DNA of 64,000 nt, taken from NCBI GenBank assembly GCA_964016885.1, contig OZ024742.1, positions 374,418,001 through 374,482,000 of the forward strand, given 5' to 3'. This DNA is from Eledone cirrhosa (taxonomy: Eukaryota). The position numbers and the translations under genes are program-made. Positions within the stretch are counted from its first letter, which is position 1; each line of letters starts with the position of its first letter. Under the pieces are notes generated by a model, which was not told where the DNA came from, did not search any database, and was given only the letters and a program-made list of their open reading frames with translations. Below, piece by piece: positions 6,001 through 48,954 of the stretch.

Positions 6001-9000
6001 CTGTGTTAAAAGATATATTAATAGTAAGGGAGGGTCTGATATAGAAACTGCGTTAGAAGATACAGTAATAGTAAGGGAGGGTCTGAGATAGAAACTGTTA
6101 GTAGATATATTAATAGTAAGGGAGGGTCTCAGATAGAAACTGTGTTAGAAGATACAGTAATAGTAAGGGAGGGTCTGAGATAGAAACTGTTAGAAGATAC
6201 AGTAATAGTAAGGGAGGGTCTGAGATAGAAACTGTGTTAGAAGATATATTAATAGTAAGGGAGTGTCTGAGATAGAAACTGTGTTAGGAGATATATTAAT
6301 AGTAAGGGAGGGTCTGAGATAGAAACTGTTAGACGATACAGTAATAGTAAGGGAGGGTCTGAGATAGAAACTGTTAGAAGATATATTAATAGTAAGGGAG
6401 GGTCTGAGATAGAAACTCTATGAGGAGATACAGTAATAGTAAGGGAGGGTCTGAGATAGAAATGGTGTTAGAAGATATATTAATAGTAAGGCAGGGTCTG
6501 AGGTAGAAACTGTTAGAAGATACAGTAATAGTAAGGGAGGGTCTAAAATAGAAACTGTGTTAGACGATACAGTAATAGTAAGGGAGGGTCTGAAATAGAA
6601 ACTGTGTTAGAAGGTATATTAATAGTAAGGGAGGGTCTGATATAGAAACTGTTAGAAGATATATTAATAGTAAGTCAGTGTCTGAGATAGAAACTGTTAG
6701 ACCCTCCCTTACTATTAATATATCTTCTAACAGTTTCTATCTCAGACACTGACTTACTATTAATATATCTTCTAACACAGTTTCTATCTCAGACCCTCCC
6801 TTACTATTAATATATCTTCTGAGATAGAAACTGTGTTAGAAGATACAGGAATAGTAAGGGAGGGTCTGAGATAGAAACTGTTAGAAGATATAGTAATAGT
6901 AAGGGAGGGTCTGAAATAGAAACTGTGTTAGACGATACAGTAATAGTAACGGAGGGTCTGAGATAGAAACTGTGTTAGAAGATATATTAATAGTAAGGGA
7001 GGGTCTGAGATAGAAACTATTAGAAGATATATTAATAGTAAGGGAGTGTGTGAGATAGAAACTGTTAGAAGATATATTAATAGTAAGGGAGGGTCTGAGA
7101 TAGAAACTGTGTTAGAAGATACAGTAATAGTAAGGGAGGGTCTGAGATAGAAACTGTTAGAAGATACAGTAATAGTAAGGGAGGGTCTGAGATAGAAACG
7201 GTGTTAGAAGATATATTAATAGTAAGGGAGGGTCTGAAATAGAAACTGTGTTAGACGATACAGTAATAGTAAGGGAGGGTCTGAAATAGAAACTGTGTTA
7301 GAAGGTATATTAATAGTAAGGGAGGGTCTGATATAGAAACTGTTAGAAGATATATTAATAGTAAGTCAGTGTCTGAGATAGAAACTGTTAGACCCTCCCT
7401 TACTATTAATATATCTTCTAACAGTTTCTATCTCAGACACTGACTTACTATTAATATATCTTCTAACACAGTTTCTATCTCAGACCCTCCCTTACTATTA
7501 ATATATCTTCTGAGATAGAAACTGTGTTAGAAGATACAGGAATAGTAAGGGAGGGTCTGAGATAGAAACTGTTAGAAGATATAGTAATAGTAAGGGAGGG
7601 TCTGAAATAGAAACTGTGTTAGACGATACAGTAATAGTAACGGAGGGTCTGAGATAGAAACTGTGTTAGAAGATATATTAATAGTAAGGGAGGGTCTGAG
7701 ATAGAAACTATTAGAAGATATATTAATAGTAAGGGAGTGTGTGAGATAGAAACTGTTAGAAGATATATTAATAGTAAGGGAGGGTCTGAGATAGAAAGTG
7801 TTAGAAGATACAGTAATAGTAAGGGACGGTCTGAGATAGAAACTGTGTTAGAAGATATATTAATAGTAAGGGAGGGTCTGAGATAGAAACTGTTAGAAGA
7901 TACAGTAATAGTAAGGGACGGTCTGAGATAGAAACTGTGTTAGAAGATATATTAATAGTAAGGGAGGGTCTGAGATAGAAACTGTGTTAGAAGATACAGT
8001 AATAGTAAGGGAGGGTCTGAGATAGAAACTGTTAGAAGATACAGTAATAGTAAGGGGGGCTCTGAGATAGAAACTGTGTTAGAAGATATATTAATAGTAA
8101 GGGAGGGTCTGTGTTAGAAGATACAGTAATAGTAAGGGCGGGTCTTAGATAGAAACTGTGTTAGAAGATATATTAATAGTAAGGGAGGGTCTGAGATAGA
8201 AACTGTGTTAGAAGATATATTAATAGTAAGGGAGGGTCTGAGATAGAAACTGTGTTAGAAGATACAGTAATAGTAAGGGACGGTGTGAGATAGAAACTGT
8301 GTTAGAAGATATATTAATAGTAAGGGAGGGTCTGAGATAGAAACTGTTAGAAGATACAGTAATAGTAAGGGACGGTCTGAGATAGAAACTGTGTTAGAAG
8401 ATATATTAATAGTAAGGGAGGGTCTGAGATAGAAACTGTGTTAGAAGATACAGTAATAGTAAGGGAGGGTCTGAGATAGAAACTGTGTTAGAAGATACAG
8501 TAATAGTAAGGGGGGCTCTGAGATAGAAACTGTGTTAGAAGATACAGGAATTGTAAGGGAGGGTCTGAGATAGAAACTGTAAGAAGATACAGTAATAGTA
8601 AGGGAGGGTCTGAGATAGAAACTGTGTTAGAAGATATATTAATAGTAAGGGAGGCTCTGAGATAGAAACTGCGTTAGAAGATACAGTAATAGTAAGGGAG
8701 GGACTGAGATAGAAACTGTTAGAAGATACAGTAATAGTAAGGGAGGGTCTGAGATAGAAACTGTGTTAGAAGATCTATTAATAGTAAGGGAGGATCTGAG
8801 ATAGAAACTGTTAGAAGATACAGTAATAGTAAGGGAGGGTCTGAGATAGAAACTGTTAGAAGATACAGTAATAGTAAGGGAGGCTCTTAGATAGAAACTG
8901 TGTTAGAAGATATATTAATAGTAAGGGAGTGTCTGAGATAGAAACTGTTAGAAGATATATTAATAGTAAGGGAGGGTCTGTGTTAGAAGATATATTAATA

Positions 9001-12000
9001 GTAAGGGAGGGTCTGAGATAGAAACTGTTAGAAGATACAGTAATAGTAAGGGAGGGTCTGAGATAGAAACTGTTAGACGATACAGTAATAGTAAGGGAGG
9101 GTCTGAGATAGAAACTGTTAGAAGATATATTAATAGTAAGGGAGGGTCTGAGATAGAAACTCTATGAGGAGATACAGTAATAGTAAGGGAGTGTCTGAGA
9201 TAGAAATGGTGTTAGAAGATATATTAATAGTAAGGCAGGGTCTGAGGTAGAAGCTGTTAGAAGATACAGTAATAGTAAGGGAGGGTCTAAAATAGAAACT
9301 GTGTTAGACGATACAGTAATAGTAAGGGAGGGTCTGAGATAGAAACTGTGTTAGAAGATATATTAATAGTAAGGGAGTGTCTGAGATAGAAACTGTTAGA
9401 AGATATATTAATAGTAAGTCAGTGTCTGAGATAGAAACTGTTAGAAGATATATTAATAATAAGGGAGGGTCTGAGATAGAAACTGTGTTAGAAGATACAG
9501 GAATAGTAAGGGAGGGTCTCAGGTAGAAACTGTTAGAAGATATAGTAATAGTAAGGGAGGGTCTGAAATAGAAACTGTGTTAGACGATACAGTAATAGTA
9601 AGGGAGGGTCTGAGATAGAAACTGTGTTAGAAGATACAGTAATAGTAAGGGAGGGTCTAAGATATAAACTGTGTTAGAAGATACAGTAATAGTAAAGGCG
9701 GGTCTGAGATAAAAACTGTGTTAGAAGATATATTAATAGTAAAGGAGGGTCTGTGTTAGAAGATATATTAATAGTAAGGGAGGGTCTGAGATAGAAACTG
9801 TGTTAGAAGATATATTAATAGTAAGGGCGGCTCTGAGATAGAAACTGTGTTAGAAGATATATTAATAGTAAGGGAGGGTCTGAGATAGAAACTGTTAGAA
9901 GATACAGTAATAGTAAGGGAGGGTCTGAGATAGAAACTGTGTTAGAAGATATATTAATAGTAAGCGAGGGTCTGAGAGAGAAACTGTTAGAAGATACAGT
10001 AATAGTAAGGGCGGGTCTGAGATAGAAACTGTGTTAGAAGATATAGTAATAGTAAGGGAGGGTCTGACATAGAAACTGTTAGAAGATATATTAATAGTAA
10101 GGGAGGGTCTGAGATAGAAACTGTGTTAGAAGATATATTAATAGTAAGGGAGTGTCTGAGATAGAAACTGTTAGAAGATATATTAATAGTAAGGGAGGGT
10201 CTGAAACTGCGTTAGAAGATATAGTAATAGTAAGGGAGCGTCTGAAACTGCGTTAGAAGATATATTAATAGTAAGGGAGGGTCTGAAACTGCATTAGAAG
10301 ATATATTAATAGTAAGGGAGGGTCTGAGATAGAAACTGTGTTAGAAGATTTATTAATAGTAAGGGAGGGTCTGAAACTGCGTTAGAAGATATCTTAATAG
10401 TAAGGGAGTGTCTGAGATAGAAACTGTTAGAAGATACAGTAATAGTAAGGGAGGGTCTGAGATAGAAACGGTGTTAGAAGATATATTAATAGTAAGGGAG
10501 GGTCTGAAATAGAAAATGTGTTAGACGATACAGTAATAGTAAGGGAGGGTCTGAGATAGAAACTGTGTTAGAAGATATCTTAATAGTAAGGGAGTGTCTG
10601 AGATAGAAACTGTTAGAAGATATATTAATAGTAAGGGAGGGTCTGAGATAGAAACTGTGTTAGAAGATACAGTAATAGTAAGGGAGGGTCTGAGATAGAA
10701 ACTGTTAGAAGATACAGTAATAGTAAGGGAGGGTCTGAGATAGAAACTGTGTTAAAAGATATATTAATAGTAAGGGAGGGTCTGACATAGAAACTGCGTT
10801 AGAAGATACAGTAATAGTAAGGGAGGGTCTGAGATAGAAACTGTTAGTAGATATATTAATAGTAAGGGAGGGTCTCAGATAGAAACTGTGTTAGAAGATA
10901 CAGTAATAGTAAGGGAGGGTCTGAGATAGAAACTGTTAGAAGATACAGTAATAGTAAGGGAGGGTCTGAGATAGAAACTGTGTTAGAAGATATATTAATA
11001 GTAAGGGAGTGTCTGAGATAGAAACTGTGTTAGGAGATATATTAATAGTAAGGGAGGGTCTGAGATAGAAACTGTTAGACGATACAGTAATAGTAAGGGA
11101 GGGTCTGAGATAGAAACTGTTAGAAGATATATTAATAGTAAGGGAGGGTCTGAGATAGAAACTCTATGAGGAGATACAGTAATAGTAAGGGAGGGTCTGA
11201 GATAGAAATGGTGTTAGAAGATATATTAATAGTAAGGCAGGGTCTGAGGTAGAAACTGTTAGAAGATACAGTAATAGTAAGGGAGGGTCTAAAATAGAAA
11301 CTGTGTTAGACGATACAGTAATAGTAAGGGAGGGTCTGAAATAGAAACTGTGTTAGAAGGTATATTAATAGTAAGGGAGGGTCTGATATAGAAACTGTTA
11401 GAAGATATATTAATAGTAAGTCAGTGTCTGAGATAGAAACTGTTAGACCCTCCCTTACTATTAATATATCTTCTAACAGTTTCTATCTCAGACACTGACT
11501 TACTATTAATATATCTTCTAACACAGTTTCTATCTCAGACCCTCCCTTACTATTAATATATCTTCTGAGATAGAAACTGTGTTAGAAGATACAGGAATAG
11601 TAAGGGAGGGTCTGAGATAGAAACTGTTAGAAGATATAGTAATAGTAAGGGAGGGTCTGAAATAGAAACTGTGTTAGACGATACAGTAATAGTTAGGGAG
11701 GGTCTGAGATAGAAACTGTTAGAAGATACAGTAATAGTAAGGGAGGGTCTAAGATATAAACTGTGTTAAAAGATATATTAATAGTAAGGGAGGGTCTGAT
11801 ATAGAAACTGCGTTAGAAGATACAGTAATAGTAAGGGAGGGTCTGAGATAGAAACTGTTAGAAGATACAGTAATAGTAAGGGAGGGTCTGAGATAGAAAC
11901 TGTTAGAAGATACAGTAATAGTAAGGGAGGGTCTGAGATAGAAACTGTGTTAGAAGATATATTAATAGTAAGCGAGGGTCTGAGAGAGAAACTGTTAGAA

Positions 12001-15000
12001 GATACAGTAATAGTAAGGGCGGGTCTGAGATAGAAACTGTGTTAGAAGATATAGTAATAGTAAGGGAGGGTCTGACATAGAAACTGTTAGAAGATATATT
12101 AATAGTAAGGGAGGGTCTGAGATAGAAACTGTGTTAGAAGATATATTAATAGTAAGGGAGTGTCTGAGATAGAAACTGTTAGAAGATATATTAATAGTAA
12201 GGGAGGGTCTGAAACTGCGTTAGAAGATATAGTAATAGTAAGGGAGCGTCTGAAACTGCGTTAGAAGATATATTAATAGTAAGGGAGGGTCTGAAACTGC
12301 ATTAGAAGATATATTAATAGTAAGGGAGGGTCTGAGATAGAAACTGTGTTAGAAGATTTATTAATAGTAAGGGAGGGTCTGAAACTGCGTTAGAAGATAT
12401 CTTAATAGTAAGGGAGTGTCTGAGATAGAAACTGTTAGAAGATACAGTAATAGTAAGGGAGGGTCTGAGATAGAAACTGTGTTAGAAGATATATTAATAG
12501 TAAGGGAGGCTCTGAGATAGAAACTGCGTTAGAAGATACAGTAATAGTAAGGGAGGGACTGAGATAGAAACTGTTAGAAGATACAGTAATAGTAAGGGAG
12601 GCTCTGAGATAGAAACTGTGTTAGAAGATATATTAATAGTAAAGGAGGGTCTGAGATAGAAACTGTTAGAAGATAAAGTAATAGTAAGGGGGGCTCTGAC
12701 ATAGAAACTGTGTTAGAAGATATATTAATAGTAAGGGAGGGTCTGAGATAGAAACTGCGTTAGAAGATACAGTAATAGTAAGGGAGGGACTGAGATAGAA
12801 ACTGTTAGAAGATACAGTAATAGTAAGGGAGGGTCTGAGATAGAAACTGTGTTAGAAGATATATTAATAGTAAGGGAGGGTCTGAGATAGAAACTGTTAG
12901 AAGATATATTAATAGTAAGGGAGGGTCTGAGATAGAAAGTGTTAGAAGATACAGTAATAGTAAGGGACGGTCTGAGATAGAAACTGTGTTAGAAGATATA
13001 TTAATAGTAAGGGAGGGTCTGAGATAGAAACTGTTAGAAGATACAGTAATAGTAAGGGACGGTCTGAGATAGAAACTGTGTTAGAAGATATATTAATAGT
13101 AAGGGAGGGTCTGAGATAGAAACTGTGTTAGAAGATACAGTAATAGTAAGGGAGGGTCTGAGATAGAAACTGTTAGAAGATACAGTAATAGTAAGGGGGG
13201 CTCTGAGATAGAAACTGTGTTAGAAGATATATTAATAGTAAGGGAGGGTCTGTGTTAGAAGATACAGTAATAGTAAGGGCGGGTCTTAGATAGAAACTGT
13301 GTTAGAAGATATATTAATAGTAAGGGAGGGTCTGAGATAGAAACTGTGTTAGAAGATATATTAATAGTAAGGGAGGGTCTGAGATAGAAACTGTGTTAGA
13401 AGATACAGTAATAGTAAGGGACGGTGTGAGATAGAAACTGTGTTAGAAGATATATTAATAGTAAGGGAGGGTCTGAGATAGAAACTGTTAGAAGATACAG
13501 TAATAGTAAGGGACGGTCTGAGATAGAAACTGTGTTAGAAGATATATTAATAGTAAGGGAGGGTCTGAGATAGAAACTGTGTTAGAAGATACAGTAATAG
13601 TAAGGGAGGGTCTGAGATAGAAACTGTGTTAGAAGATACAGTAATAGTAAGGGGGGCTCTGAGATAGAAACTGTGTTAGAAGATATATTAATAGTAAGGG
13701 AGGGTCTGAGATAGAAACTGTGTTAGAAGATATATTAATAGTAAGGGAGGGTCTGAGATAGAAACTGTGTTAGAAGATATATTAATAGTAAGGGAGGGTC
13801 TGAGATAGAAACTGTGTTAGAAGATACAGTAATAGTAAGGGAGGGACTGAGATAGAAACTGTTAGAAGATATATTAATAGTAAGGGAGGGTCTGAGATAG
13901 AAACTGTGTTAGAAGATAAAGTAATAGTAAGGGCGGGTCTGAGATAGAAACTGTGTTAGAAGATATATTAATAGTAAGGGAGGGTCTGAGATAGAAACTG
14001 TGTTAGAAGATATATTAATAGTAAGGGAGGGACTGAGATAGAAACTGTTAGAAGATATATTAATAGTATGGGAGGGTCTGAGATAGAAACTGTGTTAGAA
14101 GATATATTAATCGTAAGGGAGGGTCTGAGGTAGAAACTGTTAGAAGATACAGGAATAGTAAGGGAGGGTCTGAGATAGAAACTGTTAGAAGATATATTAA
14201 TAGTAAGGGAGTGTCTGAGATAGAAACTGTTAGAAGATATATTAATAGTAAGGGAGGGTCTGAGATAGAAACTGTGTTAGAAGATACAGTAATAGTAAGG
14301 GAGGGTCTGAGATAGAAACTGTGTTAGAAGATATATTAATAGTAAGGGAGGGTCTGAGATAGAAACTGTGTTAGACGATACAGTAATAGTAAGGGATGGT
14401 CTTAAATAGAAACTGTGTTAGAAGATACAGTAATAGTAAGGGAGCGTCTGAAATAGAAACTGTGTTAGACGATACAGTAATAGTAAGGGAGGGTCTGAGA
14501 TAGAAACTCTGTTAGAAGATACAGTAATAGTAAGGGAGGGTCTGAGATAGAAACTGTGTTAGAAGATACAGTAATAGTAAGGGAGGGTCTGAGATAGAAA
14601 CTGTTAGACGATACAGTAATAGTAAGGGAGGGTCTGAGATATAAACTGTGTTAGAAGATATATTAATAGTAAGGGAGGGTCTGAGATAGAAACTGTGTTA
14701 GAAGATACAGTAAGAGTAGGGGAGGCTCTGAGATAGAAACTGTGTTAGAAGATACAGTAATAGTAAGGGGGGCTCTGAGATAGAAACTGTGTTAGAAGAT
14801 ACAGGAATTGTAAGGGAGGGTCTGAGATAGAAACTGTAAGAAGATACAGTAATAGTAAGGGAGGGTCTGAGATAGAAACTGTGTTAGAAGATATATTAAT
14901 AGTAAGGGAGGCTCTGAGATAGAAACTGCGTTAGAAGATACAGTAATAGTAAGGGAGGGACTGAGATAGAAACTGTTAGAAGATACAGTAATAGTAAGGG

Positions 15001-18000
15001 AGGGTCTGAGATAGAAACTGTGTTAGAAGATCTATTAATAGTAAGGGAGGATCTGAGATAGAAACTGTTAGAAGATACAGTAATAGTAAGGGAGGGTCTG
15101 AGATAGAAACTGTTAGAAGATACAGTAATAGTAAGGGAGGCTCTTAGATAGAAACTGTGTTAGAAGATATATTAATAGTAAGGGAGTGTCTGAGATAGAA
15201 ACTGTTAGAAGATATATTAATAGTAAGGGAGGGTCTGTGTTAGAAGATATATTAATAGTAAGGGAGGGTCTGAGATAGAAACTGTTAGAAGATACAGTAA
15301 TAGTAAGGGAGGGTCTGAGATAGAAACTGTTAGACGATACAGTAATAGTAAGGGAGGGTCTGAGATAGAAACTGTTAGAAGATATATTAATAGTAAGGGA
15401 GGGTCTGAGATAGAAACTCTATGAGGAGATACAGTAATAGTAAGGGAGGGTCTGAGATAGAAATGGTGTTAGAAGATATATTAATAGTAAGGCAGGGTCT
15501 GAGGTAGAAACTGTTAGAAGATACAGTAATAGTAAGGGAGGGTCTAAAATAGAAACTGTGTTAGACGATACAGTAATAGTAAGGGAGGGTCTGAAATAGA
15601 AACTGTGTTAGAAGGTATATTAATAGTAAGGGAGGGTCTGATATAGAAACTGTTAGAAGATATATTAATAGTAAGTCAGTGTCTGAGATAGAAACTGTTA
15701 GACCCTCCCTTACTATTAATATATCTTCTAACAGTTTCTATCTCAGACACTGACTTACTATTAATATATCTTCTAACACAGTTTCTATCTCAGACCCTCC
15801 CTTACTATTAATATATCTTCTGAGATAGAAACTGTGTTAGAAGATACAGGAATAGTAAGGGAGGGTCTGAGATAGAAACTGTTAGAAGATATAGTAATAG
15901 TAAGGGAGGGTCTGAAATAGAAACTGTGTTAGACGATACAGTAATAGTAACGGAGGGTCTGAGATAGAAACTGTGTTAGAAGATATATTAATAGTAAGGG
16001 AGGGTCTGAGATAGAAACTATTAGAAGATATATTAATAGTAAGGGAGTGTGTGAGATAGAAACTGTTAGAAGATATATTAATAGTAAGGGAGGGTCTGAG
16101 ATAGAAACTGTGTTAGAAGATACAGTAATAGTAAGGGAGGGTCTGAGATAGAAACTGTTAGAAGATACAGTAATAGTAAGGGAGGGTCTGAGATAGAAAC
16201 TGTGTTAGCAGATATATTAATAGTAAGGGAGGGTCTGAGATAGAAACTGTTAGACGATACAGTAATAGTAAGGGAGGGTCTGAGATAGAAACTGTGTTAG
16301 AAGATACAGTAATAGTAAGGGAGGCTCTGAGATAGAAACTGTGTTAGAAGATATATTAATAGTAAAGGAGGGTCTGAGATAGAAACTGTTAGAAGATAAA
16401 GTAATAGTAAGGGGGGCTCTGACATAGAAACTGTGTTAGAAGATATATTAATAGTAAGGGAGGGTCTGAGATAGAAACTGCGTTAGAAGATACAGTAATA
16501 GTAAGGGAGGGACTGAGATAGAAACTGTTAGAAGATACAGTAATAGTAAGGGAGGGTCTGAGATAGAAACTGTGTTAGAAGATATATTAATAGTAAGGGA
16601 GGGTCTGAGATAGAAACTGTTAGAAGATATATTAATAGTAAGGGAGGGTCTGAGATAGAAAGTGTTAGAAGATACAGTAATAGTAAGGGACGGTCTGAGA
16701 TAGAAACTGTGTTAGAAGATATATTAATAGTAAGGGAGGGTCTGAGATAGAAACTGTTAGAAGATACAGTAATAGTAAGGGACGGTCTGAGATAGAAACT
16801 GTGTTAGAAGATATATTAATAGTAAGGGAGGGTCTGAGATAGAAACTGTGTTAGAAGATACAGTAATAGTAAGGGAGGGTCTGAGATAGAAACTGTTAGA
16901 AGATACAGTAATAGTAAGGGGGGCTCTGAGATAGAAACTGTGTTAGAAGATATATTAATAGTAAGGGAGGGTCTGTGTTAGAAGATACAGTAATAGTAAG
17001 GGCGGGTCTTAGATAGAAACTGTGTTAGAAGATATATTAATAGTAAGGGAGGGTCTGAGATAGAAACTGTGTTAGAAGATATATTAATAGTAAGGGAGGG
17101 TCTGAGATAGAAACTGTGTTAGAAGATACAGTAATAGTAAGGGACGGTGTGAGATAGAAACTGTGTTAGAAGATATATTAATAGTAAGGGAGGGTCTGAG
17201 ATAGAAACTGTTAGAAGATACAGTAATAGTAAGGGACGGTCTGAGATAGAAACTGTGTTAGAAGATATATTAATAGTAAGGGAGGGTCTGAGATAGAAAC
17301 TGTGTTAGAAGATACAGTAATAGTAAGGGAGGGTCTGAGATAGAAACTGTGTTAGAAGATACAGTAATAGTAAGGGGGGCTCTGAGATAGAAACTGTGTT
17401 AGAAGATATATTAATAGTAAGGGAGGGTCTGAGATAGAAACTGTGTTAGAAGATATATTAATAGTAAGGGAGGGTCTGAGATAGAAACTGTGTTAGAAGA
17501 TATATTAATAGTAAGGGAGGGTCTGAGATAGAAACTGTGTTAGAAGATACAGTAATAGTAAGGGAGGGACTGAGATAGAAACTGTTAGAAGATATATTAA
17601 TAGTAAGGGAGGGTCTGAGATAGAAACTGTGTTAGAAGATAAAGTAATAGTAAGGGCGGGTCTGAGATAGAAACTGTGTTAGAAGATATATTAATAGTAA
17701 GGGAGGGTCTGAGATAGAAACTGTGTTAGAAGATACAGTAATAGTAAGGGCGGGTCTGAGATAGAAACTGTGTTAGAAGATATATTAATAGTAAGGGAGG
17801 GTCTGAGATAGAAACTGTGTTAGAAGATATATTAATAGTAAGGGAGGGACTGAGATAGAAACTGTTAGAAGATATATTAATAGTATGGGAGGGTCTGAGA
17901 TAGAAACTGTGTTAGAAGATATATTAATCGTAAGGGAGGGTCTGAGGTAGAAACTGTTAGAAGATACAGGAATAGTAAGGGAGGGTCTGAGATAGAAACT

Positions 18001-18478
18001 GTTAGAAGATATATTAATAGTAATGGAGTGTCTGAGATAGAAACTGTTAGAAGATATATTAATAGTAAGGGAGGGTCTGAGATAGAAACTGTGTTAGAAG
18101 ATACAGTAATAGTAAGGGAGGGTCTGAGATAGAAACTGTGTTAGAAGATATATTAATAGTAAGAGGAGGGGGGAGGGTCTGAGATAGAAACTGTGTTAGA
18201 AGATATATTAATAGTAAGGGAGGGTCTGAGATAGAAACTGTTAGACGATACAGTAATAGTAAGGGAGGGTCTGAGATAGAAACTGTGTTAGAAGATACAG
18301 TAATAGTAAGGGAGGGTCTGAGTTAGAAACTGTGTTAGAAGATACAGTAATAGTAAGGGAGGGTCTGAGATAGAAACTGTGTTAGATGATATATTAATAG
18401 TAAGGGAGGGTCTGAGGTAGAAACTGTTAGAAGATACAGTAATAGTAAGGGAGGCTCCGAGATAGAAACTGTTAGAAG
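1..18478 (+). repeat. Large tandem satellite, 45/47-bp unit GAGATAGAAACT(GT)GTTAGAAGATA(TATT/CAGT)AATAGTAAGGGAGGGTCT, about 400 copies, runs off the left edge
   Basis: Unit read directly (GAAAC at 1, 46, 93 gives periods 45 and 47); shorter variants lack GAGATAGA; copy number estimated as length divided by unit. Confidence 0.98.
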
Positions 18479-19790
18479 GTGACATAAATAAACTTGAGAG
18501 AACTTGAAAACCTTTGAAAGATGGTTTGTTAAGAACTGTTAGTGGTGTGTAGATGATAAAAAGGACGACCAAGACTCTTGGAAACATGTTGGTGGGATGA
18601 TGAAGTTGGAAATATGATCGATGAGAAGAGGGAAAGATTCAGCGAGTAAGTGGTATAGTAACAGAAGGGGCTACTTATCAGGATACATGGCAGTCAAGAG
18701 GGTGTAAAGAAGTGGCAAGGACACAGGAGATACATAGAAAAATGTTTAGACCATGTATGGATAGGGAGTAAGGTGAGAGAGGTATTTAAGATTGTAAGAC
18801 AGCCAGAGAGAGTGATGTGATTGAAAGATGAAGATGGATAAATTGTTGTAGACTTGTGTGGAATTAAAGAATGGTGGAAGAGGTATATGGAGAGATTGTT
18901 GAATGTGGAGAATGAATGGGATGGCAACATAGAGAGCAATTTAAGTCTCAGACTGGCTGAGGAAGTAGTGAGAAATATGAAGAGTAGAAGAGCAGCAAAG
19001 GTGGTGGGTATCTGACGAAAGCTTTTGATCGGGTACCACATGAAGTAGTGACATGGGCACTGAAGAGTGTTGGTGGTGGGGAAATGGTTGGTTAAAGTAG
19101 TAATGACATGTAGTGTTGTAAAGAGGAAGGACAGGAACAGTGAGGAGTTTGAAGTGAAAGTTGGGGTACATCAGGGATCAGTATTAAACCCACTACTATT
19201 TGTAGTTGTGATGGAGGTACTGGTCTGAAGTTTAAAGGAGGGTTTACCATGGGAGTTGGTGTATATAAATGTGTGAAAGGATTATTAAATAATGTGGCAG
19301 CTACATTTAAGTGTAAATGTGTATGGAGGGAGCTATAGATGGAAGATGTGGAATAAACAAGGTGGATCAGACTGTGAGACAGTATCTAGAGTGAAATGTG
19401 CATGGAGGTAGTCTGCTAATGAGGAGAGAACTGGAGGGAATGGTATATGCTGCATGTTTGAGAAGTATCAGGATTTATGGGAGTAAGACAGAATAATGGA
19501 AAGAGTGGCAATAAGAATGGTCCAGTGGATGAGTGGAATATCACTGAGAGGAAAACAATGAATTGCAGTAAATGATATAGAAGCAGTGATAGAATGAGAA
19601 GTGACTGGGTGAGAGGAGTGATGGAAATGAATGTGGAAGGAAGTAGAGGAAGAGGAAGACCAAGAAAGACATGGCTAAAGATGATAATGATGGAGGAAAC
19701 GAAAGCCCAGGGAGAGTTGGTGAGGTGAAATGCAGACAATAGGGAAGCTTGTCATGGGACCTGCAAGGCTAGCTCCTGCTTTAGCAGGGA
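18479..19790 (+). mobile_element. Decayed RTE-clade LINE fragment (ORF2 linker, RT and 3' region)
   Basis: Broken frames give KGRPRLLETCWWDDEV, KAFDRVP, KVGVHQGSVLNPLLF and VEGSRGRGRPRKTW, typical RTE ORF2 motifs; many stops and frameshifts. Confidence 0.8.
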
Positions 19791-22869: not shown

Positions 22870-24430
22870 AAGCATAAAACTTGTGGACCAAATGATGGGA
22901 ACAGTGATAGGTCAACTAATTAAGGAAAGAGTCAAATTGGTTTTGAGCCAGGGAGGAGCACTACAGATGCTCTCTTCCTAGTGAGAACAAGAAAAATTAC
23001 AAGCCATGTGTAAACCAATATATCCAGCTTTTGTTGACATAGAGAAGGCCTTAGACAGAGTTCCACCATCTGTTATCTTGTGATCTCAAGGAAATGGAGG
23101 TAGATGAGTGGCTTGAGAAAGCAGTGCAAGTTGCATACATAGGTACTATCAGTAAAGTGAGAGTGGGTTATGAATTTAGGGAGTAATTCATTCCCTTCCT
23201 GTTTATTACAGTTCTTCAGGCCATAGTAGAGCTGTTTTAGACCGGGTGTCAATGGGAACTTTATGCTGATTACCTGGTTCTTATAACTGAATTTGTGGAA
23301 GAACTAGAGAAGGGATTCCTACTGTGGAAACAGAACTGAGTAAACTTAGCAAAGACCGAAATTTTTGTAAGTAGGAAAGAAAGCATAATTCTGGTCCCCT
23401 GCTCAATATATAAGAAAGGAATAGGTAGAAACTTTATACAATGTACGCATTGTAAAATGTGGGTACACAAAATGTAGTTGAATTGTAGAGAGACCAACAG
23501 AAGACATACACAAGGAGAATTATAAGAACCTTAGTGTAATAAACATCCCCCTATTACAGGAAAGCTCCATAGAAATAATAGATAGCTTCTATTACCTAGG
23601 TGACTGAATTAGCAGTAAAGAGGCGGCTCAGTGGAGCAGCTAGAATAAGAACATGCTGAGTTAAGAAAAATATTGCCTGTGTTGAAACGAAAGGTTTTTC
23701 TCTATGAATGAAAGGCCAGCTGTGTGAAGTGGGATGGTGCGTGGAAGTGGAAGGTGGGCAGCAAATGCAGAGACTGGGTAGAAATGAAGCAAGTATGCTT
23801 CAATGGCTGTGCAATGTAACTATGCATGGATGGGCTGTGAGAGAAACTGGGTATAAGAGGAATCTGATGTAGTGTGTAAGAGGGAAGACTGCACTGGTAT
23901 GGACATGTGATGTGTATGAATGAACTGAGAGAAACTGGGTATAAGAGGAATCAGATGTGTTTAAGAGGGAAGACTGCACTGGTATGGACATGTGATAAAC
24001 TGAGAGAAAAACTGGTTGAGAGGAGTCAGATGTAGTAAGAAGGAAGACTGCTGGTATGGACATGTGATAAACAGAGAAACTGGGTATAAGAGGAATCTGA
24101 TGTGTGTGAGAGGGAAGACTGCTCTGGTGTGGACATGTGATGAACTGAGAGAAAAACTGGGTATAAGAGGAATCTGATGTAGTGTGTAAGAAAGAAGACT
24201 GTGTTGGTATGAACATGTGATGTGTATGAATGAGAACGCTAAGTAAAGACATGCAAAAAAAATTCCAGCAGAGGGAAGCTGCAGTAGCAGTAGACCAAAG
24301 ATGTGGGCAGATGAGAATTGATCTCATATTGTTGAAGTTCACAGAGATGACATAAGATTATGATAAATGGAGGGAGGCGGTACTGGAAAAGGCTCATCAA
24401 AGCCATACATAAATGGAGAAGTGGATGTAT
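22870..24430 (+). mobile_element. Decayed RTE LINE (RT to 3' end) with an internal tandem amplification
   Basis: AFVDIEKALDRVP, ELYAD, FYYLGD remnants; the LHWYGHVM segment is repeated five times at 23839-24232. Confidence 0.75.
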
Positions 24431-24615
24431 AATGATGATAGCTTGCAGTGCTAAACTAAAATCCATTTGTGTAATATAAGTGAGTCTGAGAGACTAAGGG
24501 GAATTGACAAGAGTTTGTGTAAAGATGGAAATGGTCAGTTTTTACATGGTTTTGTGTCCTTCGTTGTAATTTTTCAATTTCATGTTTAGTTTCTGAGAAA
24601 TATTTTCATATTTAG

Positions 24616-24689
24616 CTTCAGAGATTCCAGAACATTGTGTCATCCTGTGAAAGGGCCTTAAAATCAGTTTCTGACCAAATTGCAGAAGC
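24616..24689 (+). CDS. ZFR: ZFR-like exon B: LQRFQNIVSSCERALKSVSDQIAE(A)
   Basis: TTTAG acceptor at 24614-5, GTAAGT donor at 24690; 74 nt, phase 0 to 2; continues exon A in frame and resembles [20 protein letters not shown]. Not in the ORF track. Confidence 0.92.
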
Positions 24690-24754
24690 GTAAGTGTTCC
24701 TTGCTTAAATCATATAATTGCTTTGATATGTGTATGTATTTGAGTAGTGGTAAT

Positions 24755-24794
<40 letters not shown>

Positions 24795-24927
24795 TACTTG
24801 GGGAGTTATATATCACAGTGAGTGGGTTCTGTTATTATTTCTGGCAATATTATTACAACAATATGACCCTCCCCAAGTATAACAATATTTGTTTCGACAC
24901 GATTTCATATCAAAAACGTTGCAAAAC

Positions 24928-24973
<46 letters not shown>

Positions 24974-25239
24974 TTGCGAGGTTTTTGATATGAAATCGTG
25001 TCGAAACAAATATTGTTATACTTGGGGAGAGTCATATTGTTGTAATAATATTGCCAGAAATAATAACAGAACACACTCACTGTTTGGTTGGTTTTCGCTT
25101 CTGTATCTTTTATATCAGTTAATTTATTCGGTCCTCAAACACGCGTATGTGCAGAGAAGACATAAATAAATAAATAAATAAATAAATAGATTAAATAAAG
25201 ATGGCGTAGACATACAATACAACAAGAGGAAACATAATA

Positions 25240-25285
25240 GCACCACTGACGATGTTGCAGATGTGCAACGAAAGAACTGTGTTAG
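25240..25285 (+). ncRNA. Hammerhead-ribozyme-like core 1 (probably degenerate)
   Basis: CTGACGA (25246-52), T, stem GTTGCA/GATG/TGCAAC, GAAA (25270-73); the putative cleavage triplet reads CTG, which is non-permissive. Confidence 0.55.
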
Positions 25286-25656
25286 ACTATATATATGTGT
25301 TTGTGTCTATATTATATCTGTATTTTTTACCGTTGGTCAGTCAATGGTAAACATTGAGGACCGAATAAATTAACTGATATAAAAGATACAGAAGCGAAAA
25401 CCAACCAAACAGTGAGTGTGTTCTGTTATTAATTCTGGCAATATTATTACAACAATATGAACCTCCCCAAGTATAACAATATATATATATAACGAAGGAG
25501 TTGGCGTAAGGAACCAGATGGACCATAACGCACCAGAGTACTCAATACTTAGGGTAGTAGAGTGGGTAATAGGAAAAAGTATGACTTCGACGGCTATTTT
25601 TGTCCAGAAATAGCCGTCGAAACGGCTTGAGCTCTGCCGTTGGGGTCATACTTTTT

Positions 25657-25698
<42 letters not shown>

Positions 25699-25918
25699 TT
25701 GCAAGGTTTTTGATATAAAATAGTGTTTGCTGAAACAAATATTGTTATAATATTGCCAGAAATAATAACAGAACACACTCACTGTCTGGTTTCGATTGGT
25801 TTTCGCTTCTGTATCTTTTATATCTCTATAGTTAATTTATTTGGCAATCAATGTTTATCATTGATTAACCAACGGTTAAAAGTATAGGTATAAATAAATA
25901 AATATATATATATATAGT

Positions 25919-25964
25919 CTATCAAAGTTCTTTCATCACACACCTGTGACATCATCAGTGGTAC
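25919..25964 (-). ncRNA. Hammerhead-ribozyme-like core 2
   Basis: Reverse complement reads GTACCA-CTGATGA-T-GTCACA-GGTG-TGTGAT-GAAA-GAACTT-TGATAG. Confidence 0.55.
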
Positions 25965-26017
25965 TATTGTTTCCTCCAATTGTATTGTAATGTTTAAGCC
26001 ATGGTGTAGACATTAAT

Positions 26018-26064
26018 GTACCACTGATGATGTCACAAGGTGTGTGATGAAAGAACTTTGATAG
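26018..26064 (+). ncRNA. Hammerhead-ribozyme-like core 3
   Basis: GTACCA-CTGATGA(26024-30)-T-GTCACA-AGGTG-TGTGAT-GAAA(26049-52)-GAACTT-TGATAG; stem I TACCA/TGATA pairs at 4 of 5 positions. Confidence 0.55.
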
Positions 26065-26713
26065 ACTATATATATCTGTATTTTTAACCATTGGTCATCG
26101 TTCATCATTGTTTAACGTCCATCTTCCACGCTAGCTTGGGTAGGACAGGCTGTCCCTTTGAGAGAGATCAGGTCGGGAGACTGTGATTTGCTCACACACA
26201 ATTGATTTCAGCTTGGTTTCTATGGCTGGATGCCCTTCCTAACGCCAACCACATTTGTGCGCTGGACTCTCTCTATATATATATATAATTCAAATTTAAG
26301 ATATATTTAGCGAGAGAAGAATCATATCATTTGAGAAAAATAGTATTTTCTACATATATATATAATACAAATAATTTTGATACCTTAACATTCTGTGTGT
26401 ATGTGTATATATATATATATATCATCATCATCATCGTTTAATAATCTTCCACGCTAGCATGCGTTAGCTATATATATATATAAATAATAGAAATAGAAAT
26501 GAACACACAAAGAAGTGTTTTGAATTACATGGGCTGAAAACTACTATGGTGCAATGCATATAATCTACAAAAAACGGAAAATATATAATAACTGGAAAAA
26601 GTGAATTAAAATGTACTAATCATTTAAACTCCGGTTTTTCATTTGATATATATATGCACACACACACACACACACATAATTTTAAAGAAATATACTTCCA
26701 TATATTTATATAG

Positions 26714-26788
26714 TGATTCCCTGAAGAAGAAAAGTGGTGGGAAAGTGTCTGCAGGATCTGCTGAAGCTGATGGGGAATCAAAAGAAAG
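26714..26788 (+). CDS. ZFR: ZFR-like exon C (charged linker): DSLKKKSGGKVSAGSAEADGESKE
   Basis: TAG acceptor at 26712-3, GTAAAA donor at 26789; 75 nt, phase 2 to 2, open frame fits exons B and D; lies where DZF proteins have a variable charged loop. Confidence 0.75.
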
Positions 26789-26826
26789 GTAAAATATCAT
26801 GTTTACATACAAATTGTAGTTTGTGT

Positions 26827-27066
26827 TTAACCCTTTAGTTACCAAACTGCCTGAAACGACTCCTGCTACTTCAGTACAAAGCTGTTTGTTTTAAAGTGCT
26901 TATATTTATCTGAAAATCTTCCATCATAATTTTATCTAAGAACGTTTGTTGTGTTCCAAACACCAGCTAAATATTAAGTTAGATTACTAAATCCCTAAAA
27001 CTTTTTTGAGTATTTAAAAATCATAAGCAGTGTCTTTCATTAGAAGTATGGAAATGAAGGGGTTAA
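26827..27066. mobile_element. piggyBac-like MITE (family B), TTAA-CCC...GGG-TTAA
   Basis: TTAA flanks and short CCCTT/AAGGG termini; related copies at 38174-38397, 56815-57060, 41203-41600 and about 31700-31878. Confidence 0.6.
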
Positions 27067-27399
27067 TTAGTAAATTTTATGGTTACAGTAAGAAAATTAG
27101 TTCATGTATCAGATTCATTTTATCAGGATACACTCAGGGGGTTGTTGTCTCTTCAACACAGTTGAAGGGTCCTCTTCATTGCAGCATCATCATCATATAT
27201 CCATTTTTCCATGCTAGCATGGGTTAGACGAATTATCCTGTTGTGAGACAAACCAGGACAGATGACCCTGTTCATAGAAATATCACATGTAGTTTAAAAC
27301 TCTCCTAACTCCTCTTCATTTCAATAAACAGCTGTTTTCTGTTACTTTAAGATCTGACTATCAAGGAAATAACTCTACAAATTAATTCTTTCATCTTCA

Positions 27400-27715
27400 C
27401 CCTCTTATTATTGGTTATGGGGGCAGAGTCCTCAAACACTCCTTCCAGTGAGTCTGTCAGAAGCAACCGTGTCCAGCTGGATCCTCAAGTGAGACCAGCC
27501 AAACTCATAGATGTTATTTTAACAATCTTGCTCAGGGTCTACCCTGGGTCTCCTGCCAATTAGTTTTGCCTGTAAAATTTGTCCAGTGATTCTTTCCTGA
27601 GAGATTCTAACCACGTCCATAGTATCGGAATTGTGATCTCCCAATTCAGAGAAATAACGGCCCTACCTGGATCTCCGAGTTACACACTATATCGCGTAAC
27701 ATTATGAGAATTACC
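27400..27715 (-). mobile_element. RTE-like LINE 3' fragment (second family)
   Basis: Minus strand RSQ.RYYG..VR.SQERITGQILQAK..GRRPRV; homologous copies at 36155-36430 and 43720-44150. Confidence 0.65.
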
Positions 27716-27847
27716 TGCTTGATCTAGTTTATATTTAATTTCAATTTGATATTTCGCATTATCACTAATTTAGTATCTTTGCTAATTTCTACATTGGATT
27801 CACTACAAATCCTAATTATTTTACCTGTAAATTTTGTTACCTTTCAG

Positions 27848-28025
27848 TGGCAAGAAAGAAGAGCCAACACCACGTGCTTTAAAAGGTGTGATGCGTGTTG
27901 GTGTTTTAGCTAAAAGTTTATTACTCCAAGGAGACACAGATGTCCAACTTGTAGTTTTGTGTTCTGATAAACCAACAAAAAGTTTATTAAAGAAAGTACA
28001 TAATTTACTATCAAAGACGATGCCT
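27848..28025 (+). CDS. ZFR: ZFR-like exon D: (S)[59 protein letters not shown]
   Basis: TTTCAG acceptor at 27846-7, GTAAGT donor at 28026; 178 nt, phase 2 to 0; DZF signature RALKGVxRVGVLAKxLLLxGDxxVxLVxLCSxKP. Confidence 0.95.
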
Positions 28026-29166
28026 GTAAGTAGATTTATCATAATCATTATATTATGTTTGTTATTTGATAACCTTATTTTACAGACATGTAGTCTTTGA
28101 CATTTTATATAGATGACTATTGGAAAATTCAGACTAAAAATACAACTTTTATTTCTATATTGCATTTTTGTGGAATCCTTAGCTTTCTGTATAAATTTAA
28201 TTCTAACTTCTGTTTTGAAATTTGATGTGTTGGTGAAAAGATTAGTCAACTCAGCCATTGAACTTCTAATGTCCTGTACCACATCAAACTGTATTAGCCA
28301 AGCATTTTTGAAGTATAAAATACCAATATGACTGCATCACATTAAAAATTAAGGTTTTTACTCTGATAATACAAGTTTTCACAATAATCTGTCCTAGTAA
28401 AGACACAATAAACATTTAAATTAATGCACATAATTTTAAAGATATTTTCTGCTAAATCATTGCATATTGTTAAGATTTAATGACTGTGTAACACTCCACA
28501 TGTATTAAAATTTTAATATAAGAAGCTTCAAAATAAAGAACATAGCAAGCATTTTCAAACAATGGAAAAATATGTTTGAAGGGCCCATTGATATTTTTGC
28601 TATTATAATTCATAGGCCCCTTTTGGTCTCAAATGACTATGGGTTTGCACCTAAAAAGTTCTCTAAAGCACAGGCCTGTGCAAAGTGTTTTTGTGGAAGA
28701 CCATCAGACGCATACCAGTCTCTTCCTCTTCACACCACCAATGTAGTCCAAGGGAAAGGCGAAGGTCAATACAACTTGGCACCAGTGATGTTGCAACTCA
28801 TTTTTTCCAGCTGATTGAACTGGAGCAACATGAAATAAAGTTTCTTGCTCAAGGACACAATTCACTGCCCAGTCCAGAAATCAAACTCACAACCTTCACA
28901 TATAATCCATTTTTTTTTTTTTTATATATAACAATTGCAATTATGGAAAAAATATTTTTTTATAGGTGAGAAAAATGAAAATTTTATTTAACTCTTTCAG
29001 TACCTACCTGCCTGATTCTTTGATATAAAATCTTATTTAACTCTTTCGATACCAAACCTGCCTAAACATGTCCATTATTCAATGATATAAAATCTCGTTT
29101 TACATCATCTAGATTTAATTTAAAACCTTCCATCATAGTTTTATGTACGAACCTTTTGTACTAGTG

Positions 29167-48200: not shown

Positions 48201-48463
48201 CAGTAACCGGGACCCTGTTTATGTGTTTTCTCGAGATTGACTACGCAGGTCACTAATTTGTGATCCGTGTAGCCAACCGTGCGCATTTCTGGACAGCTTA
48301 ATATGTCCCTATCCTTACTTCTAACTAAGAATCTATCTAAGTACGATCTAGATTGACCACTGTGGTTTCTCCAAGTCCAGGTAGGCACAGTTGGAAAATC
48401 TAGTCGATATCTATCGACCAAGTTAAAACGGTCGAGTAACCCCTTGAGGATGTTACACCCCCC
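45298..48463 (-). mobile_element. 5'-truncated L1/Tx1-clade LINE (partial APE endonuclease, RT, C-terminal CCHC zinc finger), frameshifted
   Basis: TW...SYLDRFLV, TDHKLV, GYWKLN; KSPGLDGIPYELY, NFRPITLLNTELKILAK, DQSKAFDRVDH; AYADDVT; CPRC...ETVAHALVQC; AATAAA near the 3' end; GC-rich relative to the flanks; ORF2 broken into several pieces. Confidence 0.93.
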
Positions 48464-48954
48464 TATAGATAGATAGATAGATATGTGTGTATGTGTAAGG
48501 TGGTAGTGTCAGTCACAATAAAATGCTCTAAGTACACGCTGTGAATTGGTTGATGTTAAGAAGAGCATCTAGCCATAGAAACCAAGGCCAAACATGGAGC
48601 ATAGGAACAACCCATGTCTCTCATGTAAACATGGAGAGTAGGAACAACCCATAATCTATATACAGTTTACAGTGCTATATATAATCTACATAGTCTACAG
48701 TGATGGACGTTCCCTTCAATTGTCAACTAAAAATGTTTCCACCACCTCCCAACTGTGTCACTCCTACTAGAAGTACCAAGCAATGTTAATACTAACGGGA
48801 AATATCGAGGTTTTGACTTAATCTATAGCATACCACAAGCTTGGTGCTTCTGTAACCACACCAGTGATTCAGATGTGTGTTAGCACTTGATAGTTGTTGG
48901 AAGAATAATACAAATAACACTAAGAAAATTACATAGACCATCACTATCACAATA

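What the first reader, a model, noticed from the sequence alone, without database searches (positions are those of the whole stretch)
25240..26064. Three hammerhead-like cores with compensatory changes in stem II
Seen: CTGANGA-T-[6-bp stem]-GAAA occurs three times within copies of one repeat. Stem II is GTTGCA/TGCAAC in copy 1 and GTCACA/TGTGAT in copies 2 and 3. Two pairs are switched on both sides (T-A to C-G, G-C to A-T) and one C becomes T, leaving a G-U pair. Known: minimal type I hammerheads with a very short stem III mark Penelope-like element termini and animal non-LTR retrozymes, and are thought to cleave as dimers. Inference: this is a ribozyme-bearing non-autonomous element family, possibly undescribed, and two of its cores lie on the sense strand of the ZFR intron. 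The stem III region (GAAAGAACTT) is non-palindromic and stem I has a mismatch, so these copies may be dead.
Basis: partly seen in the sequence, partly recalled or inferred. Interest (0 to 1): 0.72.

Follow-up and report, generated by a model that had tools for sequence, protein, structure and literature searches.

The report
Penelope hammerhead with mismatched dimer helix
The three motifs are leftover ends of a common protein-coding jumping gene whose hammerhead-shaped RNA is a known feature of such elements, but this group lacks the usual self-matching loop, so it is predicted to cut weakly at best, and these three copies are likely inactive.

Summary
The three cores are real. They are minimal type I hammerheads in the pseudo-LTRs (pLTRs) of truncated copies of a protein-coding Penelope-like element, not of a non-autonomous family: genomic copies run upstream into an RT plus GIY-YIG ORF, with 4.1-kb units, 30-40-nt tails and (TA)n targets. 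About 17,000 exact motif matches fall into nine subfamilies. Core (11 of 11), stem II and a 2-bp helix I are kept while flanks diverge. The departure from the published motif is helix III: no subfamily found is palindromic (A-G-AA-C-U, A-G-AG-C-U, A-G-GA-C-U, one wobble A-G-AU-U-U), against 54 of 56 palindromes in Cervera and de la Pena 2014. A dimer would need tandem purine mismatches; cleavage is untested, and 0 of 77 truncation ends fall at the cut site. The stem II switch is one lineage event, reachable through CpG. Copy 1 has G at position 17; copy 3 is predicted to pair fully with copy 2. Earlier scan notes report other Penelope hammerheads on other DNA of this genome; none listed describes this helix III. 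Known kind, modest variant.

The parts
25242..25283 (+). Hammerhead copy 1 (subfamily A1): helix I ACCA/TGTT, core CTGACGA 25246-25252, stem II 25254-25259/25264-25269, GAAA 25270-25273, loop GAAC, U16.1 at 25278, G (not H) at position 17 = 25279
   Evidence: 257 of 260 identical to the A1 consensus
25921..25962 (-). Hammerhead copy 2 (subfamily B2): helix I ACCA/TGAT, stem II GTCACA/TGTGAT with G10.1-U11.1, loop GAAC, UU at 16.1/17; antisense to the host gene
   Evidence: 244 of 256 identical to B2
26020..26062 (+). Hammerhead copy 3 (B2); predicted to be fully paired with copy 2 in the pre-mRNA
   Evidence: 96 of 107 identical to B2
25139..25482 (+). 5'-truncated PLE copy 1: piece of the 3' UTR plus whole pLTR, ending in (TA)n after the first codons of the ORF, no tail
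24969..25138 (-). Inverted, shorter copy (pLTR 3' part plus tail) joined head-to-head to copy 1; stops before the hammerhead
   Evidence: (I1)
24815..24927 (+). pLTR 3' end plus tail, mirror image of the previous piece across a (TA)n tract
   Evidence: (I2)
25696..26002 (-). PLE copy 2 (B2): pLTR with tail, ending in (TA)n; older insertion than copy 1
26003..26100 (+). PLE copy 3: inverted partner of copy 2, short deletion upstream of the core, similarity ends near 26100 where other sequence begins
   Evidence: (I7)
24622..24689 (+). Upstream exon of the DZF-domain host gene; the intron 24690-26713 holds all three cores
   Evidence: splice sites and phase read from the sequence; DZF_N match in the exon at 27848-28026

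Best explanation
The three cores are minimal type I hammerhead motifs in the pseudo-LTRs of truncated copies of a protein-coding Penelope-like retrotransposon, likely of the Neptune/Nematis type; in full-length elements the motif would cut weakly, if at all, as a dimer held by a mismatched helix III, and the three window copies are likely inactive. Shown: copies continue upstream into one RT + Cys-linker + GIY-YIG ORF; units repeat at about 4.1 kb; the tail is the start of the ORF; core, stem II, a 2-bp helix I, G15.2-Y16.2 and UH are kept in nine subfamilies. Inferred: a transcript from the upstream pLTR holds two hammerheads 4.1 kb apart that pair through A-G-R-R-C-U (2+2 pairs around tandem purine mismatches); most templates are copied uncut or re-joined, because copies run through the cut site; truncated and inverted pieces land in (TA)n. 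The window holds at least two such insertions (young A1, older B2), passengers in the intron. Odds by step: PLE pLTR hammerhead 0.95; window copies inactive 0.85; consensus of at least one subfamily cleaves as a dimer in vitro 0.5.
For: RT (YSRYVDD; RVT_1 E 4e-5, under the curated cut-off) and NVVY..C..C..YIGET endonuclease directly upstream of copy-1-type pLTRs and of 8 of 30 copy-2-type loci; pLTR-ORF-pLTR unit in L118 (4137 bp) and tandem units of 4147/4145 bp in L213; homologues match Pfam GIY-YIG at E 2.5e-4 and 9e-3, under the cut-off, Atlas neighbour with GIY-YIG in 15% of members; CX4CxxC linker and (TA)n targets as described for Neptune/Nematis. Core 11 of 11 invariant over 7 consensuses against 62 of 218 flank positions (Fisher p 2e-6); the variable sites are 7 (A,C,G,U), 9.1, loop II, loop III and 17 (U or A). 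Helix I is GTCA/TGAC in C, D, E, F (5 bp in F), and pair 4 is G-C there but A-U in A1, A2, B1, B2. No subfamily with a changed G15.2 among the first 100 of 1054 matches. Copy 3 stem II probability 0.0, paired to copy 2 at about 1.0.
Against: No cleavage data. Rfam finds no hammerhead in the window (38 other hits) or in a subfamily F copy. Subfamilies C, D, E, F, A3 were fetched with patterns that contain the core, which inflates core conservation; the ORF-start pattern recovered the same types in 13 of 30 loci but reached no more distant family. Helix I in A and B is only 2 bp before a mismatch. 0 of 77 truncation ends lie within 3 nt of the predicted cut. No fully intact ORF in the 10 long units inspected; breaks fall at different places in different copies. 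Clade assignment rests on one motif, not a tree with named references. Individual copies show no clear extra core conservation (135 of 143 core against about 91% flank), as expected after insertion.
Confidence: 0.8

Rival explanations
1. The motif is a hammerhead by descent but no longer cuts in this clade (at least in A and B); core and stem II are kept as a folded signal for the element's protein or its promoter.
For: A/B helix I has a fixed mismatch at pair 3 and A3 keeps 2 bp only, yet A3 has about 5,700 matches and 1.5% median divergence; predicted dimer helix III +2.4 kcal/mol; B2 fixed G10.1-U11.1; no ends at the cut site; in the Anolis PLE, hammerhead mutants still insert in vitro and no reads end at the cut site (PMC11167929, passages).
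Against: Position 17 is never G in a consensus and went U to A twice; G15.2-Y16.2 is kept; F gained a fifth helix I pair; published PLE hammerheads with 2-bp helix I (D. virilis) or an AUAU helix III (+1.6 kcal/mol) exist.
Confidence: 0.35
2. A non-autonomous hammerhead repeat (metazoan non-LTR retrozyme) that spreads through a 300-nt circular RNA.
For: Most copies are short and non-coding; PLE-derived retrozymes are described (10.64898/2026.07.22.740005, part 1 of 5 read).
Against: No head-to-tail array of the 282-nt unit in 30 loci; partner copies are inverted; 5' ends are scattered and run into the ORF; the only head-to-tail arrays seen have a 4.1-kb period and carry the ORF.
Confidence: 0.04
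3. The stem II compensation and the loop III changes come from mutation bias (CpG decay, A-to-G excess, hairpin correction), not from selection on RNA structure.
For: The switch is CA/TG to TG/CA, reachable through CG/CG; GTCGCA/TGTGAC is in 3 of 35 B copies; 12 of 16 lineage changes at A are A>G, which by itself favours AG and GA loops; one copy carries 32 A>G among 35 differences (L087).
Against: Does not explain invariance of 11 core sites against 53-58% identity in aligned flanks between A1 and C, D, E, the G-C to A-U switch in helix I, or U17A and the helix I gain in F. With the observed spectrum the three loop III changes all lowering the predicted energy has joint p 0.022, but post hoc and n = 3.
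Confidence: 0.25
4. The sense cores cut or regulate the host pre-mRNA (co-opted intronic ribozyme).
For: Two sense cores 779 nt apart in one intron could in principle form a dimer; copy 1 stem II is predicted to form (p about 0.96).
Against: Copy 1 has G17 and a predicted shifted helix I; copy 3 is predicted to be buried in a duplex with copy 2; both are ordinary members of repeats with thousands of copies.
Confidence: 0.04

Closest known systems
Minimal hammerheads (min-HHR) of metazoan Penelope-like elements (Cervera and de la Pena 2014, PMC4209133; main text parts 1-2 of 4 and supplement file 2 parts 1-2 of 3 read; supplement file 1 not available)
   Same: Type I, CUGANGA plus one bulged base, 6-bp stem II with G10.1-C11.1, short helix I, UH, located in both pLTRs, thousands of single and opposite-strand copies.
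   Different: Helix III is not palindromic (G-AA-C, G-AG-C, G-GA-C, G-AU-U); in their Fig. S3 I read 54 of 56 as exact palindromes and none with a purine-purine loop. A/B helix I is 2 bp plus a fixed mismatch.
Drosophila virilis Penelope hammerhead (same paper)
   Same: 2-nt loop III closed by one extra pair, 2-bp helix I, 6-bp stem II.
   Different: Its helix III (AUAUAU) is palindromic and helix I is CC/GG; Penelope/Poseidon lacks the CX2-5CxxC linker found here.
Neptune/Nematis C-terminal EN+ PLEs (Craig et al. 2021, PMC8557442; passages read)
   Same: RT, CX2-5CxxC linker, C-terminal GIY-YIG with two internal Cys, pLTRs, inverted 5'-truncated partners, 30-40-nt tail, (TA)n targets.
   Different: An Asn-rich low-complexity stretch in the N-terminal half (ORF about 1,200 aa); no named reference was aligned, so Neptune against Nematis is open.
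PAc Poseidon element of Anolis (PMC11167929; passages read)
   Same: Tail lies in the first part of the ORF; hammerhead in the pLTR.
   Different: There the ORF starts in stem II; here the ATG is about 150-185 nt downstream of the predicted cut.
Short-stem-III hammerheads that cleave as dimers (Lunse, Weinberg and Breaker, RNA Biol 14:1499; not held, seen only as cited in PMC6765202)
   Same: PLE-associated type I, short stem III, dimer cleavage.
   Different: The citing review calls the loop palindromic; whether the paper lists purine-purine loops could not be checked.
Metazoan non-LTR retrozymes (Li, Clavereau and Pollet 2026, part 1 of 5 read; PMC7229834, search listing only)
   Same: Type I hammerhead related to PLE pLTRs.
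   Different: Retrozymes are non-coding head-to-tail arrays; this is the coding element and its truncations.

Membership tests
EN+ Penelope-like element | Single ORF with RT and C-terminal GIY-YIG endonuclease | tested here: met
   (motifs in order; all 10 long units broken, at different places); Pfam RVT_1 and GIY-YIG matches are under the curated cut-offs; Atlas lead
EN+ Penelope-like element | pLTRs from partial tandems; inverted 5'-truncated partner copies | tested here: met
   window
EN+ Penelope-like element | Optional 30-40-nt tail | tested here: met
   (9 of 30 best matches continue into the tail); window 24969-25009, 24889-24927, 25696-25740
Neptune/Nematis clades | CX2-5CxxC linker and (TA)n targeting | tested here: met
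   CTNRKCIIC; 3' flanks
Neptune/Nematis clades | RT phylogeny with named members | not tested
   no named reference proteins were fetched; nearest named hit is an Octopus vulgaris hypothetical protein at 60%
PLE minimal hammerhead | CUGANGA and GAAA core, G10.1-C11.1, stem II | tested here: met
   B2 (window copies 2, 3) has G-U at 10.1/11.1
PLE minimal hammerhead | UH at the cleavage site | tested here: met
   UU or UA in all nine consensuses; not met in window copy 1 (UG)
PLE minimal hammerhead | Helix I of 2-5 bp | tested here: met
   4-5 bp in C, D, E, F; 2 bp plus mismatch in A, B
PLE minimal hammerhead | Palindromic helix III/loop 3 | tested here: not met
   GAAC, GAGC, GGAC, GAUU; exact palindromes occur only as scattered single-copy mutants in the listed matches
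PLE minimal hammerhead | Self-cleavage as a dimer | not testable with these tools
   needs in vitro assay; genomic ends show no pile-up at the cut site
Rfam hammerhead families | Covariance-model match | tested here: not met
   (E up to 10)
Metazoan non-LTR retrozyme | Non-coding head-to-tail units, each with a hammerhead | tested here: not met

The most novel reading that the evidence does not exclude
This clade uses a dimeric hammerhead whose helix III is closed by tandem purine-purine pairs (A-A, A-G, sheared G-A) instead of a palindrome, kept weak so that most templates stay uncut; its young subfamilies form a natural series (AA, AG, GA, wobble AU; U17 to A17 twice; helix I of 2 to 5 bp) in which every fixed loop change strengthens the predicted dimer but none reaches a full palindrome that is one substitution away.
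Probability: 0.3. Interest if true: 0.55.

Novelty: new variant of a known kind. Interest (0 to 1): 0.3.

Why it matters
As a locus it is ordinary: broken ends of an abundant retrotransposon in an intron. The clade matters a little more. Whether PLE hammerheads cut in vivo and whether cutting helps transposition is open (PMC8557442 and PMC11167929, passages). Here nine related subfamilies, several with 1-3% median divergence, differ in exactly the positions that set dimer strength and cleavage, so one set of assays could tell whether spreading needs cleavage. Searches that require a palindromic or absent loop 3 would miss more than 17,000 such motifs in this genome.

Tried and rejected
Rfam: no hammerhead match in the window or in an F copy. 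Expression: no RNA holder listed; the four runs laid were contigs of unrecorded kind, so they show no ends, strand or level; no splice-like joint stood out there. Cleavage footprint in DNA: 0 of 77 truncated 5' ends within 3 nt of the cut, 171 of 248 copies span the pLTR (many loci were fetched with hammerhead-containing queries). Intact ORF: none in 10 long units. Palindromic sister subfamily: none among the first 100 listed matches (only the start of contig C1 is listed, so small subfamilies can be missed). Retrozyme arrays: not seen. Longer helix I in A/B: predicted extensions are weak and differ between subfamilies. Literature: 'hammerhead + non-palindromic + stem III' 0 papers; 'hammerhead ribozyme + octopus' 5 papers (4 listed), none on this motif by title and abstract start; the O. 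vulgaris repeat paper PMC13282606 has 0 occurrences of ribozyme or hammerhead; Lunse et al. not held, and supplement file 1 of PMC4209133 could not be searched, so the claim that the mismatched loop is undescribed is provisional. Search of earlier findings by sequence: nothing. Subfamily E (5 copies) was left out because its consensus 5' end is unreliable; L176 and L194 were dropped from the count as alignments running into unrelated DNA.

Full report
Observation. The pattern CTGA-N-GA ... GAAA with a 6-bp stem is present at 25246-25273 (+), 25958-25931 (-) and 26024-26052 (+). Alone it is weak evidence (10 matches against 4.4 expected in the window), and Rfam lists no hammerhead among 38 hits in 23000-28000. 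The cores lie in a nest of direct and inverted repeats bounded by (TA)n, inside intron 24690-26713 of a + strand gene with a DZF domain. Orthology to ZFR was not tested. The genome has 3.0 Gb; an octopod host is my inference, from the nearest named protein (Octopus vulgaris, 60%).

What the repeat is. The 282-nt copy 1 has 3066 candidate matches; the 40 scored are 97-99% identical apart from itself. Copy 2 has 2719 candidates, best 87-91%. Of 30 copy-1 loci I printed the upstream DNA of 14; 13 run into endonuclease-coding sequence, and four longer fetches run on through an RT. Eight of 30 copy-2 loci do the same. An RT segment has 1709 candidates. L118 holds pLTR-ORF-pLTR with 4137 bp between hammerheads, and L213 holds tandem units of 4147 and 4145 bp without a mismatch. 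The ORF starts MTLPKY inside the pLTR, has an Asn-rich stretch, DKSG, YSRYVDD, a CX4CxxC linker and NVVY..C..C..YIGET. All 10 long units inspected are broken, at different places, so an ORF of about 1,200 aa is inferred and no intact copy was seen. Pfam gives RVT_1 for the RT and GIY-YIG for two homologues, all under the curated cut-offs; the Atlas adds a lead. Copies end either after the first codons or after a further 30-40-nt tail. pLTRs, inverted truncated partners, tail, linker and (TA)n targets match the description of Neptune/Nematis PLEs (PMC8557442, passages). The window therefore holds at least two insertions of truncated ends: a young A1 group at 24815-25482 and an older B2 pair at 25696-26100.

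Is the hammerhead real? Pattern searches gave 7095, 1234, 3837 and 5738 exact matches, each with 0 for the reversed control; overlaps are small and one older type (A at position 7 with loop GAAC) is not counted. The copies sort into nine subfamilies (A1, A2, A3, B1, B2, C, D, E, F) with median divergence 0.8-8.6% (not computed for E). C also carries the ORF, at 45-71% protein identity to A. Across seven consensuses the 11 core positions are invariant against 62 of 218 flank positions (p 2e-6); A3 and F keep them too. Variation falls where hammerheads tolerate it (established knowledge): position 7, the bulge at 9.1, loop II, and 17 (U or A). Helix I is GTCA/TGAC in C, D, E, F, with a fifth pair in F; in A1, A2, B1, B2 pair 4 is A-U instead of G-C but pair 3 is a fixed mismatch, and A3 keeps only 2 bp. 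Caveat: C, D, E, F and A3 were fetched by patterns holding the core. A pattern on the ORF start alone (544 matches) gave 30 loci; 15 alignments reached the motif, two of them spurious, and the other 13 carried the same types. This eases the bias but reached no more distant family.

The stem II compensation. It is one event, on the branch to A: B, C, D, E, F have GTCACA/TGTGAC. CA/TG to TG/CA can pass through CG/CG with every step paired, and an intermediate is seen in 3 of 35 B copies. It supports a stem but is cheap mutationally. The G-U pair of copies 2 and 3 is a C-to-T change at a CpG site (11.1), common in B2.

What differs from the published motif. Cervera and de la Pena define the PLE motif with a palindromic helix III. 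In the machine-read Fig. S3 I count 54 of 56 exact palindromes; the exceptions are one Latimeria row (C A) and Hydra (3 bp with a triloop). The same genome has such a textbook family (GAAA-CG-UU, 4173 matches). This clade has none: A-G-AA-C-U in six subfamilies, A-G-AG-C-U in D, A-G-GA-C-U in F, A-G-AU-U-U in A3. Predicted symmetric duplex energies are +2.4, -0.4, -1.7 and +0.2 kcal/mol, against -5.0 for AGAUCU, -1.7 for ACGU and +1.6 for AUAU; so AA is weak but near published cases. Copies with a changed G15.2 (1054) are spread over all backgrounds in the first 100 listed, as decay would give; among changes at 16.2 only A3 forms a subfamily in the first 100 of 6746. All three fixed loop changes lower the predicted energy (joint p 0.014-0.022), but the test is post hoc, n is 3, and A>G makes up 12 of 16 lineage changes at A; the two single changes alone have p about 0.2. 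The A3-type loop also shows in contigs of two other coded organisms (X5, X6 at low depth).

How it most likely works. Shown: anatomy and conservation above. Inferred: RNA started in an upstream pLTR holds two hammerheads 4.1 kb apart; they could pair through helix III and cut after U16.1-H17. Known from others: such motifs are inactive as monomers and weak as dimers (PMC4209133), and in an Anolis PLE cutting is not needed for insertion in vitro (PMC11167929). Here 171 of 248 copies span the pLTR and 0 of 77 truncation ends lie within 3 nt of the cut, so the templates copied were uncut or re-joined. I put in vitro dimer cleavage of at least one consensus at 0.5; the main rival is a non-cutting structural relic.

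The window copies. Copy 1 has G at 17 (T in 65 of 68 A copies), which breaks the UH rule (consensus NUH; that G blocks cleavage is recalled), and is predicted to shift helix I. Copy 2 is antisense to the host gene. Copy 3 is predicted to pair completely with copy 2 (stem II probability 0.0). An effect on the host pre-mRNA through cleavage is unlikely; long double-stranded RNA is the more likely product.

Earlier scan notes list other Penelope-linked hammerheads and retrozymes in this genome; none of the eight shown describes this helix III, and a search by sequence found nothing. One note on ADAR-type editing of Penelope hairpins prompted my substitution-spectrum test.

Verdict. The mismatched helix III across a young clade is a variant not found in the papers I could read, with the key paper by Lunse et al. 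unseen. Interest 0.3.

Noticed in passing
window 62235-62212 (-): Decayed copy of an unrelated textbook minimal hammerhead family (TCTT CTGATGA ... GAAA CG TT AAGA; 4173 exact matches); its parent element was not traced.
   Followed up: partly
L087, - strand positions 200-520 (G000:C1 near 18.41 Mb): pLTR copy with 32 A>G among 35 differences from the C consensus, the pattern expected of an A-to-I hyper-edited RNA copied back into DNA.
   Followed up: partly
pLTR, 25 nt before to 8 nt after the predicted cut: No 5' truncation end falls in this 33-nt stretch, while four fall at the 5' arm of stem II (-28 to -25); small sample, biased fetching, unexplained.
   Followed up: no
window 25197-25209 and 25411-25416 (+): Two short motifs kept between the A/B and C/D/F groups outside the hammerhead: AARATGGCG (resembles a YY1 site, recalled) about 45 nt upstream of the core, and GTGMGT (resembles a splice donor) upstream of the ATG.
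   Followed up: no
run X4 laid on L002:1501-1826: B2-type letters plus A>T in loop III (which would give the palindrome AGAUCU) at depth about 2000 of 5300 in 3 contigs; linkage is inferred from equal depths and the run kind is not on record.
   Followed up: no
L021, L048, L081, L089, L091, L143: At least four further hammerhead types with palindromic helix III (ACGCGU, AUGCAU, ACUAGU and others) lie by chance in the fetched loci.
   Followed up: no
window 45351-48508 (-): Broken L1/Tx1-like ORF2 pieces (endonuclease, RT, C-terminal part) by their motifs (label recalled).
   Followed up: no
window 1-19000: Long stretch with GC skew 0.5-0.7, probably a tandem array.
   Followed up: no
L115-L119, L213-L215: The PLE ORF has an in-frame Asn-rich low-complexity region of variable length upstream of the RT; 'asparagine' and 'N-rich' do not occur in PMC8557442.
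   Followed up: no
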